Shown: one piece after another, positions 39,001-42,000 of the stretch
Layout of the letters: each line of letters begins with the position of its first letter
Numbering within the stretch: the stretch's first letter is position 1
Assembly: GCA_030324005.1 (NCBI GenBank)
Contig: JARDVH010000099.1
Coordinates: 17,582,553-17,646,360 of the forward strand
Length of the DNA: 63,808 nucleotides
Direction of reading: 5' to 3'
DNA from: Negaprion brevirostris
Lineage: Eukaryota
Program-made: the position numbers

Positions 39001-42000
39001 GCCTCCCCATTACTCTTTTCAATGCACACCATCTTTCGTTTGTGTTACTGTACTTGTCAGCTACTGTTCACATTCGTGTTTTTCACCTTGCTAGCAGAAT
39101 ATTTTTATTTGGACTGGGATCATCCCTCCCCATTCACAGGGAGAGAAGGTGCAGAAAGATGATATATTGTTTAGTCGTGATATTTTCAATCCTGCACACA
39201 TTTCCATTGGAATGCCCTCCTTTACATCACATTATTTATTAAGAGTAAACTACAACACTATTTGTAGGTCATTGATTTAATGACCAATAAACCAGTAGCA
39301 GCTCAATGGCAGAGGTAAATTAATTGGCCTCCTCTTTAACTCTGACCAACCATGTATTTTCACCACTGTAAGGAGCCTGATTTAAAATGAGAAGAATGCA
39401 GTTCCTCAGTGGGGAGACTATTCCCCAACCCTGGGCATCTTCTATTCAGACAGTAGCATTGTGACTATTTTAATTTTTCTTCAGTCCTCTCTGTCTGATT
39501 TCCACATTGGACCGCCTTGAAATGCATTGCTTTGAACTGTTGTCCTTGCTCAAGGGTTTTTCTGTGCTGGAGAGGTCCAAGGCCATATTGTCTTCTTCAG
39601 CTGTGGTGGTTATGGGCACCCGGTCTGTGCCATCCTTAGTCTGCGATGACTCAACGATGCTGTCCACATATTCTTCTCCTGTAGTAGCTTCACTTTTAGT
39701 TTTTGATGTTGGATCAACAGATTTTTTATGCATGCCGAGGTTTTAAATAGAGGGTGGTTAGTGATGATCAACTCCCTCAATCACTCTATTTCAATCAATT
39801 TCTTTCTTTCCCTGCATTCCTTTTTACTGGTAGATATTATAACAATTCACACAGTAGACCTCTTACTAAATGGCTGTACAATTACAGAACGAGGCTTTTT
39901 GGCCTTTGAACAGCTATTATTTAAAGAATTATCCAATTAGTCCCAATCTCACTTTTCAATATGCTTCCACACAAGAGATTAGTAACTAAAGTTACAGTGC
40001 ACAGTATTGGGGATAATATGCTGGTATGAATTGAAAATTGGTTAATGGACAGAAAACAGAGTAAGAATAAATTGGTCATTCTCAAATTGGCAGGCTATGA
40101 TTGGTGGGGTACTACAAGAATCAGTGCTAGGATTCAAGCTATTCGCAAACTATTTCAATGATTTGGATTAGGGATGAAACATAATATTTCCAAGTTTGCT
40201 GGTAACACAAAACTTGATGAGAATGTAAGTTGTGAGGAGGATGCAAGGAGGCTTCAAGGAAATTTAGACAGACTAAGTGAGTGGGCAAGTGCAGGATAGA
40301 TGGAATATAATATGGAAAAATGTGAAGTTATCCATTTGGTAGGAAAAATACCCAGTATGTTTTAAATAATGAAAGATTGGGAGGTGCTGATGTCCAAAGA
40401 GACCTAGATGTCCTTGTTAATGAGTCACTGAAAGCTAACATGCAGATACAGCAAGCAATTAGGAAGGTAAAGGATACATTGGCCTTTATAAAAGAGGATT
40501 TGAATAAAGATGTCTTGCTGCATATATATGGAACCTTGGTAAGACGGCACCTGGAGTATTGCATACAGTTTTGGTCTCTTTACCTAAGAAAGGATATACT
40601 TGCCATAAAGGGAATGCAATGAAGGTTCACCAGACTGAACCCTGGGATGGTAAGATTGTCTTATGAGGATGGACTGAGGAGACTGGCCCTGTATTCTCCA
40701 GCATTGACTTTAGAAGGATGAGAAATGATCTCGTTGAGGCATTCATAATTCATACAGGGCAGATACAAGAAGGATGTTTCCCTTGGGGAGTGGTCTAGAA
40801 GCACAGAACACAGTCTCCAAATATTTAGGACTGAGCTGAGGAACAATTTCTCCACTGTGTGGTGAATCTTTGGAATTCTCTATCCCAGGGTGCTCAATCA
40901 TTGAGTTTATTCCAAACAGAGTCGATAGATTTCTAGATATTAAAGACATTGAGGGAGATGGGGATATTGCAGGAAAATGGTGTTGAAATAGAAGATCAGC
41001 CATGCTCTAATTAAAATTTGGAGCCAGCTGGAGAATGACCTATCCCTGATCCTATTTCCTATGCTCCCTCTTTATTCCACACAACTCTGCAAAAAGTGAA
41101 GATCCAAATAAAACCTGAAAACCACACAGAGCAAATTCACAGCTGAAAGCTAAATTCTCCCTTTAGGATTTCAGAAACTGTTTAAAATAAACGCACTGTC
41201 GGAAGGGCTGTGTAATAATGATGTTTCATCACTTCACTGATTGACATGGTTCAGGAACTTCCTCATTTAGTGTGCTGGACAAAGAATTTGGATCGCAACA
41301 CCTTAAACATGTACATTGCAATCCATTTTTTAAATAAAACCAGAATTTGCAGTTCACCTGGGGTGGGGGAGGATAAAGAATGGCTGAAACAATTTATTAT
41401 CACCATTTGTGCACTCAACAATAACCTTCAGCAAAGACTATTTATTTGGCAGTTGGAGAGAGCTTGTACAAAGTCCAGCAAATTGTGTTAGTTGCTGCCA
41501 TTTAAAAAAGTAACTGAATAAAAATGGGGACGAATGAGTCTTGGCATGTAGCACCAAGCAGACATTAGCAAATTGGCAATCCCTTTTTACACCACACTCC
41601 ATTTTCTTTTCTAGGATGTGAAACAGGCTGATGATTTGCTTTCCCTAGTTGGTGATATAGCCTGATTTTGAGTGTCTGTCCCTCCTATCTCCCCGTCCCA
41701 CCAATAATCTTCCACTGCTTACCAAGCAACCAGGGGGCACAAGATCCTACCAAACCGTTTTTGCCAGAGTTGAGTATGGATTCAGGCAGTGGGATGGAGT
41801 GCCTGACCATGGCACCATACAGTCCATATTCTGCCATCACGCTGCTCCTGCCCCAGCATTTCTCCCGCTTCCTCCATTTTGCTCTTCGGTTCTGAAACCA
41901 GACCTAAAGGGACATGAAATGGACAATTATCTACAAACTTTAAACATCCAGCATTGTGAGTGGATATAGTAGTATCCAACATACGACTGCATGTTGTAAG

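What the first reader, a model, noticed from the sequence alone, without database searches (positions are those of the whole stretch)
39730..39770. VSX1 intron 4 ends in CG instead of AG
Seen: the minus strand reads ...CACTAAC CACCCTCTATTTAAAACCT-CG | GC ATG CAT AAA AAA TCT. Exon 4 ends in phase 1 (CTT G), so the CVC sequence PWLLG-MHKKS needs the junction at 39735, where the intron's last two bases are CG. A strong branch-point motif (CACTAAC) sits about 25 nt upstream. An in-frame TAA three codons before the ATG rules out upstream AGs. The first downstream AG (AAAAG|T) is out of frame; the next (GAAG|CT) is in frame but would delete the CVC end. Inference: this is a base-call error or variant at 39737, a rare GT-CG intron, or a splice-weakening mutation in a retinal bipolar-cell transcription factor.
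Basis: partly seen in the sequence, partly recalled or inferred. Interest (0 to 1): 0.7.

Follow-up and report, generated by a model that had tools for sequence, protein, structure and literature searches.

The report
Shark VSX1 last intron lacks AG
An otherwise intact shark copy of the retinal transcription-factor gene VSX1 shows CG instead of the obligatory AG at the end of its last intron, most likely an error in a draft assembly or a single animal's variant rather than a new way of splicing.

Summary
The minus strand carries a five-exon VSX1 gene of 1002 coding nt (334 codons). Introns 1-3 are GT..AG. Intron 4 (41722-39736) starts with GTAAGC and ends with CCTCG.

The junction position is fixed by protein homology. 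Thirteen of 14 cartilaginous-fish VSX1 proteins read PWLLGMHKKS. Exon 4 ends at PWLL plus the first base of a Gly codon, and exon 5 supplies GC, then MHKKS.

No canonical donor/acceptor pair nearby keeps this sequence (0 of 82 frame-keeping pairs). The donor, the CACTAAC branch motif, the pyrimidine tract and the 87-codon exon 5 are all intact. The 15 codons that a downstream cryptic AG would remove match those of seven sharks at 12-14 of 15 positions.

So any defect is recent, private or artefactual. My ranking, which rests on base rates rather than a test:
- Consensus error in a gap-rich draft assembly, about 0.55. It would be either A>C at -2 or a lost A, which would give CTCAG|G.
- A real allele that damages splicing, about 0.2.
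- A real, used GT-CG intron, about 0.13.

No reads, RNA-seq or orthologous shark DNA were available here, so these cannot be separated. Interest is low.

The parts
49440..49791 (-). VSX1 coding exon 1: ATG at 49791-49789, 352 nt, ends in phase 1, donor G|GTAAAG
   Evidence: Searched alone, it finds 11 of 11 hits named VSX1 or VSX1-like; the best is 84% identical over 100% of the query.
45653..45734 (-). VSX1 exon 2: 82 nt, acceptor caatcAG|, donor CACAG|GTAGGT. It encodes ...KRKKRRH(R).
42943..43066 (-). VSX1 exon 3: 124 nt, first part of the homeodomain, acceptor gccacAG|, donor CAG|GTAAAC
   Evidence: Pfam PF00046 on the exon alone: E = 1e-11, profile positions 5-45 of 57.
41723..41903 (-). 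VSX1 exon 4: 181 nt, end of the homeodomain plus the CVC domain, ends ...CCC TGG TTG CTT G in phase 1
   Evidence: Its 60 whole codons are 100% identical to the S. torazame protein in alignment A1.
39736..41722 (-). Intron 4: 1987 nt, begins GTAAGC, ends CCTCG
41721..41722 (-). Canonical GT donor of intron 4 (TTG|GTAAGC)
39757..39763 (-). CACTAAC branch-point-like motif, likely branch A at 39758, 22 nt before the intron end
39738..39756 (-). Pyrimidine-rich stretch between the branch motif and the 3' end. Positions -22..-3 are 70% pyrimidine, against 60-80% for the other three acceptors. It is interrupted by AAAA.
39736..39737 (-). The anomaly: CG where the 3' splice-site AG is required (plus strand C39736, G39737)
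39743..39745 (-). TAA in the exon 5 frame that closes every upstream acceptor
39473..39735 (-). VSX1 exon 5: 263 nt, GC + 87 codons, with the stop at 39472-39470. It encodes the end of the CVC domain (MHKKS), the MALDLSS block and the C-terminus ...RQRGLKKN.
39693..39694 (-). First AG downstream of the branch motif. It is out of frame; if used, the reading frame shifts and ends 27 codons later.
39688..39689 (-). First in-frame downstream AG. If used, 48 nt (16 codons, including MHKKS) are lost.

Best explanation
The locus is an intact, ordinary five-exon VSX1 gene of a shark. VSX1 encodes a paired-like homeodomain + CVC transcription factor of retinal bipolar cells. The last intron is a normal U2-type intron in every respect except position -2 of its acceptor. 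I think the CG most likely does not reflect the working allele of the species. It would then be a consensus error of a gap-rich draft assembly, by one of two routes: a substitution (true CCTAG|GC) or a dropped A (true CTCAG|GC). In the animal the intron would then be spliced GT..AG at 41723|39735 to give ...PWLLGMHKKS....

Shown: gene identity, exon boundaries, the CG in the assembly, and the integrity of all other signals.
Inferred: that the CG is an artefact.
For: (1) The junction position is fixed by homology. Ten of 10 exon 5 hits and 13 of 14 chondrichthyan VSX1 proteins overall read PWLLGMHKKS. In alignment A1, exon 4 ends at L246 and exon 5 starts at M248 of the S. torazame protein, and 9 of 9 aligned orthologues have G in between.

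(2) Everything else needed for splicing there is intact. This covers the GTAAGC donor, CACTAAC 22 nt upstream, a 70% pyrimidine tract, G at +1, and an AG-free zone from 39772 to 39694.

(3) There is no sign of decay. Exon 5 is open for 87 codons with the same stop position as its orthologues. Its identity (71/87 to S. torazame, 71/84 to Cetorhinus) lies within the range seen between shark orders. The first 15 codons match seven sharks at 12-14 of 15.

(4) The assembly looks like a draft. There are 17 N runs in 63.8 kb. In 2 of the 17 the left flank repeats directly after the gap (28 and 42 nt exact), which is typical of unmerged contig ends.

(5) Base rates for the alternative are low.
- In the hand-curated D. 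melanogaster annotation only 8 of 60,223 introns are GT-CG, and all 8 have a similar alternative splice (PMC4528330, Table 3, passages read).
- In human only 184 U2/U12-like non-canonical sites were found, 76% of them in alternative splicing (PMC4176328, abstract and passages).
Against: No read or quality data were available, so the error is not shown.

The site is not near a contig end. The nearest N runs are 37011-37162 (2.6 kb away) and 50028-50101. It is not in a repeat within the window and not in a homopolymer.

Some N runs may be deliberate masks rather than gaps, which weakens the draft-quality argument. If the contigs come from deep short-read data, consensus substitution errors in unique sequence are rare. 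A real variant would then be about as likely as an error.

Real polymorphisms at splice dinucleotides exist: 212 validated in human (PMC2882926, abstract only).
Confidence: 0.55

Rival explanations
1. The CG is real in the sequenced animal, as a private or polymorphic allele, and it damages the acceptor. The spliceosome would then fall back on the next AG. The first (39694/3) shifts the frame and ends after 27 foreign codons. The second (39689/8) gives an in-frame loss of 16 codons including MHKKS. Either way the product is a truncated or hypomorphic VSX1, carried heterozygously or tolerated.
For: Changes at position -2 of the acceptor are a classic class of splice-disrupting variants (established knowledge). 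Splice-dinucleotide SNPs do segregate in populations: 212 validated in human (PMC2882926, abstract). The intact exon 5 and intact flanking signals fit a young allele just as well as an artefact.
Against: Such alleles are rare at conserved junctions of conserved genes; the same abstract reports that exons flanked by these SNPs are less conserved. A>C is a transversion. There is no population or read data.
Confidence: 0.2
2. The CG is real, and the intron is spliced at it. That would make it a functional U2-type GT-CG intron in a conserved developmental gene, possibly alongside some use of the downstream in-frame AG.
For: GT-CG junctions with RNA-seq support exist: 8 of 8 curated cases in D. melanogaster. 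[quoted passage not shown] The strong donor, the near-perfect branch motif and the conserved coding sequence right up to the CG are what a used site would show.
Against: The base rate is very low: 8 of 60,223 introns. All 8 of those sit beside a similar alternative splice. Here the nearest frame-keeping AG is 48 nt away. Other sharks could not be examined at the DNA level, so conservation of a CG is untested.
Confidence: 0.13
3. The lineage has permanently moved the acceptor to a downstream AG, so this species' VSX1 lacks the end of the CVC domain.
For: In-frame AGs exist at 39689, 39680, 39677 and 39674. One Callorhinchus isoform (P0016) has a different tail directly after PWLLG, so variation after this junction is not unthinkable.
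Against: The 15 codons that would become intronic match seven sharks at 12-14 of 15. That is better than the rest of the exon (57/72 to S. torazame). MHKKS is present in 13 of 14 chondrichthyan proteins.
Confidence: 0.06
4. The intron is of another type or has other boundaries: U12-type, AT-AC, or a shifted junction.
For: TCACTAAC matches the recalled U12 branch consensus TCCTTAAC at 6 of 8 positions. An AC lies at 39741-39740.
Against: The donor GTAAGCAG matches the recalled U12 donor GTATCCTT at only 4 of 8 positions. The three AT donors that pair in frame with that AC change the product by -51, +18 or +21 nt, and none starts ATATCC. Shifting the junction by 1-4 nt gives GG..TC, TG..CT, TT..CC or CT..AC (read). 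None of 82 canonical frame-keeping pairs reproduces the conserved product.
Confidence: 0.02

Closest known systems
VSX1 of other cartilaginous fishes (for example Scyliorhinus torazame, 334 aa; Heterodontus francisci; Cetorhinus maximus; Carcharodon carcharias)
   Same: The total length is the same (334 codons). The order is the same: N-terminal GFAITDLLGL motif, homeodomain, CVC, MALDLSS block...RQRGLKKN end. Exon 4 is 100% identical, exon 5 is 82% identical and exon 1 is up to 84% identical.
   Different: No protein in the collection is identical, so this species' own model is not in the collection. How the orthologues' intron 4 ends could not be looked up, because no vertebrate genomic DNA was available.
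Curated GT-CG introns of Drosophila melanogaster (FlyBase 'rule-benders', PMC4528330)
   Same: They have a canonical GT donor, differ from GT-AG by one base at the acceptor, and are U2-type.
   Different: Those 8 have transcript support and all 8 have a similar alternative splice. This one has no transcript evidence, and its nearest usable AG is 48 nt downstream.
Human U2-like non-canonical sites, for example the GT-TG site in GNAS (cited in PMC4176328)
   Same: There is a single non-canonical dinucleotide in an otherwise consensus-like U2 context.
   Different: Those sites are validated by RNA-seq or RT-PCR, and 76% take part in alternative splicing. Here there is only a genomic reading.
Splice-acceptor -2 variants and splice-dinucleotide SNPs (PMC2882926)
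   Same: A single-base change of the AG at a constitutive exon, with cryptic AGs downstream.
   Different: Zygosity, frequency and effect are unknown here, and it may not exist in the animal at all.

Membership tests
VSX1 orthologue (paired-like CVC homeobox gene) | Paired-like homeodomain | tested here: met
   Pfam PF00046 on exon 3 alone gives E = 1e-11, profile positions 5-45 of 57. The rest of the domain ([12 protein letters not shown]) lies on exon 4 and aligns with orthologues.
VSX1 orthologue (paired-like CVC homeobox gene) | CVC domain directly after the homeodomain | tested here: met
   The exon 4 peptide is 100% identical to S. torazame VSX1 across the CVC region. The domain is named as in PMC5166794 and PMC10212559 (passages). 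Pfam matched no CVC family.
VSX1 orthologue (paired-like CVC homeobox gene) | A Vsx1-type C-terminal region (RV domain) rather than the OAR domain of Vsx2 | tested here: inconclusive
   The MALDLSS block in exon 5 is nearly invariant in alignment A1. Exon 5 gave no Pfam match, OAR included. Equating this block with the RV domain of PMC5166794 is my inference.
VSX1 orthologue (paired-like CVC homeobox gene) | Best matches are VSX1, not VSX2 or other homeobox genes | tested here: met
   Exon 5: 10 of 10 hits are named VSX1 or VSX1-like by NCBI or UniRef. Exon 1: 11 of 11.
U2-type GT-AG intron | GT donor in a consensus context | tested here: met
   TTG|GTAAGC
U2-type GT-AG intron | Branch site and pyrimidine tract 18-40 nt before the 3' end | tested here: met
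   CACTAAC with the branch A at -22; 70% pyrimidine at -22..-3. Use of the branch site is not shown.
U2-type GT-AG intron | AG as the last two bases | tested here: not met
   CG at 39737-39736
U12-type intron | Donor /RTATCCTT (consensus recalled, not from a call) | tested here: not met
   GTAAGCAG matches at 4 of 8 positions
U12-type intron | Branch TCCTTAAC close to the 3' end (consensus and distance recalled) | tested here: inconclusive
   TCACTAAC matches at 6 of 8 positions and ends 21 nt from the intron end
Used non-canonical GT-CG intron | Transcript junction reads across the CG site | not testable with these tools
   No transcriptome or read data. No protein of this species is in the collection.
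Used non-canonical GT-CG intron | CG conserved at the orthologous acceptor in related species | not testable with these tools
   No vertebrate genomic collection is on hand. Only proteins could be compared.

The most novel reading that the evidence does not exclude
The CG is real and fixed in this shark, and the spliceosome uses it constitutively. That would be a GT-CG U2-type intron at an ancient, deeply conserved junction of a vertebrate developmental transcription factor, with no canonical alternative within 40 nt. It would be a natural case of AG-independent 3' splice-site choice, driven by a near-perfect branch site.
Probability: 0.1. Interest if true: 0.5.

Novelty: not a real feature. 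Interest (0 to 1): 0.15.

Why it matters
If the CG is an artefact, the only consequence is practical. Gene predictors that insist on AG will truncate or mis-splice VSX1 in this assembly, and the base should be corrected from reads.

If it is a real allele, it is either a natural loss- or reduction-of-function variant of a bipolar-cell transcription factor in a shark, or a rare constitutive GT-CG intron. The second would interest splicing specialists, though single cases of this kind are already known in flies and humans.

Tried and rejected
- Canonical rescue. I listed all GT/GC/AT donors (18) and AG/AC acceptors (23) around the junction. Of 82 frame-keeping canonical pairs, none keeps both PWLL and MHKKS.
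- Sliding the junction by 1-4 nt gives only non-canonical pairs (read).
- U12-type intron: the donor does not fit.
- A transposon or repeat insertion at the acceptor. A self-blast of 39400-41800 against the window found one unrelated 66-nt match (40952-41015 against 62773-62836) and nothing at the acceptor.
- This species' own annotated protein, which would show how annotators spliced it. It was not found with exon 5 'longer', exon 1 'longer' or exon 5 'near'.
- Structured RNA or tRNA-derived elements: Rfam gave 0 hits and ARAGORN 0 genes.
- Other genes in the window, as a further check of splice-site quality. Of 90 ORFs of 85 or more codons without X, only the one holding exon 3 matched a credible family. 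No other introns could be judged.
- Per-combination counts of GT-CG in animals, from the supplement of PMC7072748. The one file held as text contains neither 'GT-CG' nor 'GTCG'. The FlyBase list of cases (File S4 of PMC4528330) was not opened.
- No splice-site scoring model such as MaxEntScan was on hand, so I made no quantitative score of the two hypothetical repairs or of the cryptic sites.

Full report
**What is there.** The minus strand between 49791 and 39470 carries a complete VSX1 gene. I placed five coding exons by reading the sequence and by homology:

| Exon | Coordinates (minus strand) | Length (nt) |
|---|---|---|
| 1 | 49791-49440 | 352 |
| 2 | 45734-45653 | 82 |
| 3 | 43066-42943 | 124 |
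| 4 | 41903-41723 | 181 |
| 5 | 39735-39473 | 263, stop at 39472-39470 |

This rests. The lengths add up to 1002 nt = 334 codons, the same length as the Scyliorhinus torazame protein.

I made, searched and printed no joined coding sequence or joined protein. What that step would have added, a whole-protein comparison, is covered by the colinear exon-by-exon matches.

I do not take the contig for human. The best matches of exons 1 and 5 are elasmobranch VSX1 proteins at 84% and 82% identity. The source is therefore a shark whose own VSX1 is not in the protein collection.

**Checking the observation.** Introns 1, 2 and 3 are GT..AG. Intron 4 (41722-39736, 1987 nt) begins TTG|GTAAGC and ends AAAACCTCG|GCATGC. 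Its last two bases are C39737 and G39736.

The position of the junction is fixed by the protein, not chosen:
- Exon 4 ends in ...PWLL plus the first base of a codon.
- Exon 5 supplies GC and then MHKKSVDPTSK....
- In alignment A1, exon 4 stops at L246 and exon 5 starts at M248 of the S. torazame protein. All 9 aligned orthologues have G in the single column between.
- I left P0010 out of that alignment because of its long unrelated C-terminal extension. It also reads PWLLGMHKKS.

Over all chondrichthyan proteins retrieved, 13 of 14 read PWLLGMHKKS. The exception is a Callorhinchus isoform (P0016) with a different tail after PWLLG.

The minus strand has no AG between 39773/2 and 39694/3:
- The four in-frame AGs upstream are closed by the TAA at 39745-39743.
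- The first AG downstream is out of frame.
- The next removes 48 nt.

I listed 18 candidate donors and 23 candidate acceptors around the junction. They give 82 canonical pairs (GT-AG, GC-AG, AT-AC) that keep both frames open, and none reproduces the conserved product. Sliding the junction by 1-4 nt gives GG..TC, TG..CT, TT..CC or CT..AC.

**State of the other signals.**
- The donor is consensus-like.
- CACTAAC sits at 39763-39757, with its likely branch adenosine 22 nt from the intron end. This heptamer occurs only 5 times on the minus strand of the window.
- Positions -22 to -3 are 70% pyrimidine, within the 60-80% of the gene's other three acceptors.
- The first exon base is G.
- Exon 5 is open for 87 codons and stops where the orthologues stop.

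Exon 5 identity to other sharks (71/87 to S. torazame, 71/84 to Cetorhinus, 68/87 to Heterodontus) is within the range those sharks show among themselves. For example, S. torazame against Heterodontus is 71/87.

The 15 codons between the CG and the first in-frame cryptic AG match seven sharks at 12-14 of 15. That is better than the rest of the exon. A long-standing shift to a downstream acceptor, or a decaying gene, is therefore unlikely. Whatever the CG is, it is recent, private, artefactual or harmless.

**What it most likely is.** Nothing available can read the animal's DNA or RNA, so the choice rests on base rates.

Functional GT-CG introns are very rare:
- In the hand-curated fly annotation 8 of 60,223 introns are GT-CG, and all 8 have a similar alternative splice (PMC4528330, Table 3, passages read).
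- In human 184 U2/U12-like non-canonical sites were found, 76% of them in alternative splicing (PMC4176328, abstract and passages).
- Across annotated animal genomes all combinations other than GT-AG, GC-AG and AT-AC together make 0.577% of introns. The authors point to annotation errors as one source (PMC7072748, Table 1 and passages).

Real polymorphisms at splice dinucleotides exist but are also rare, and they favour poorly conserved exons (PMC2882926, abstract only).

Against this, the window looks like a draft assembly. It has 17 N runs in 63.8 kb. Two of them are flanked by exact 28- and 42-nt repeats of the left contig end directly after the gap.

I therefore rank the explanations as follows:
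- A consensus error first (about 0.55).
- A real splice-damaging allele second (about 0.2).
- A real and used GT-CG intron third (about 0.13).

Several points weaken the artefact reading:
- The site is 2.6 kb from the nearest N run.
- It is not repetitive and not in a homopolymer.
- Some N runs may be masks rather than gaps.
- If the contigs come from deep short reads, the first two explanations become about equally likely.

**Consequences if the CG is real.**
- Using the first AG after the branch site (39694/3) shifts the frame. The protein then ends after 27 foreign codons (frame seen), without the MALDLSS block.
- Using 39689/8 deletes 16 codons, including MHKKS at the end of the CVC domain.

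The CVC domain strengthens DNA binding by the homeodomain. VSX1 acts in bipolar cells of the retina (PMC5166794 and PMC10212559, passages). Either product would therefore probably be impaired. That last step is inference.

**Comparison with what is known, and novelty.** As a gene this is a plain VSX1 orthologue; the homeodomain, the CVC domain and the naming of best hits were all tested and met. As an intron it fails the defining AG test of the GT-AG class and the donor test of the U12 class. Membership in the small class of used GT-CG introns cannot be tested without transcripts.

I rate it 'not a real feature' as the single most likely outcome, and interest is low. The most novel reading still open is a constitutive GT-CG intron at an ancient junction. 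I give it about 0.1.

**What stayed unchecked.**
- Raw reads, transcripts and the orthologous acceptor in other sharks, because no vertebrate genomic collection was on hand.
- The closed collections metagenome contigs and viral contigs were not used and would not bear on this.
- Per-combination counts in the supplements of PMC7072748 could not be found in the text held.
- File S4 of PMC4528330 was not opened.

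Noticed in passing
window 27265-29440: A 2.2-kb minisatellite with a 15-bp unit (CACTCACACTGTCCA), about 148 copies and 72% matches. It accounts for the strongly negative GC skew (-0.24 to -0.50) of 26001-30000 and for the stack of long overlapping ORFs there.
   Followed up: partly
window 54200-54299 and 55082-55181: In 2 of 17 N runs the sequence left of the gap repeats exactly just after the gap (28 nt from 54148, 42 nt from 55040). This looks like unmerged overlapping contig ends and marks draft quality.
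   Followed up: partly
window 43067-43074 versus 45653-45660 (minus strand): The last 8 nt of intron 2 (CGCCACAG) match the last 8 nt of exon 2 (CGACACAG) at 7 of 8 positions. The ORF through exon 3 therefore reads ...SDRHRTVF upstream of the true acceptor and mimics the spliced ...RRHRTVF. In the same way NLG precedes MHKKS upstream of exon 5. This can mislead ORF-based exon calling and is probably chance.
   Followed up: no
window 39474-39746 (+): An antisense stop-free frame of 90 codons almost exactly mirrors exon 5 (39470-39742, minus strand). It has no Pfam match and is probably a by-product of the sense codon usage.
   Followed up: no
window 40326-40622 (+) and 55074-55478 (-): Two ORF fragments contain ...LEYCIQFWSLYLRKDILAIKG... 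and ...LENCMLLWSP...LGLFFLGQRRLRSDLIEVYKIMRG.... From recall they resemble the C-terminal part of retrotransposon ORF2 proteins common in fish genomes. One lies inside VSX1 intron 4, antisense to the gene. The first had no Pfam match at E <= 0.001. The second holds X and was not scanned.
   Followed up: no
window 19122-19376 (+): A weak Pfam match to Fusion_gly_K (herpesvirus glycoprotein K): E = 2.4e-4, 20.7 bits against a cut-off of 20, covering 52 residues of a 339-position profile. The peptide looks unremarkable, so I take it for chance among 92 peptides scanned.
   Followed up: partly
proteins P0008, P0014, P0015: Public VSX1 models of other cartilaginous fishes also show annotation trouble. 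The Carcharodon model has a 30-residue insertion at the exon 1/2 boundary that 8 other aligned orthologues lack. The Pristis pectinata and Callorhinchus milii models are labelled LOW QUALITY PROTEIN.
   Followed up: no
window 24912-25003: A 19-bp tandem repeat (4.8 copies, 94% matches) ends 18 nt before the longest N run, 25021-25735.
   Followed up: no
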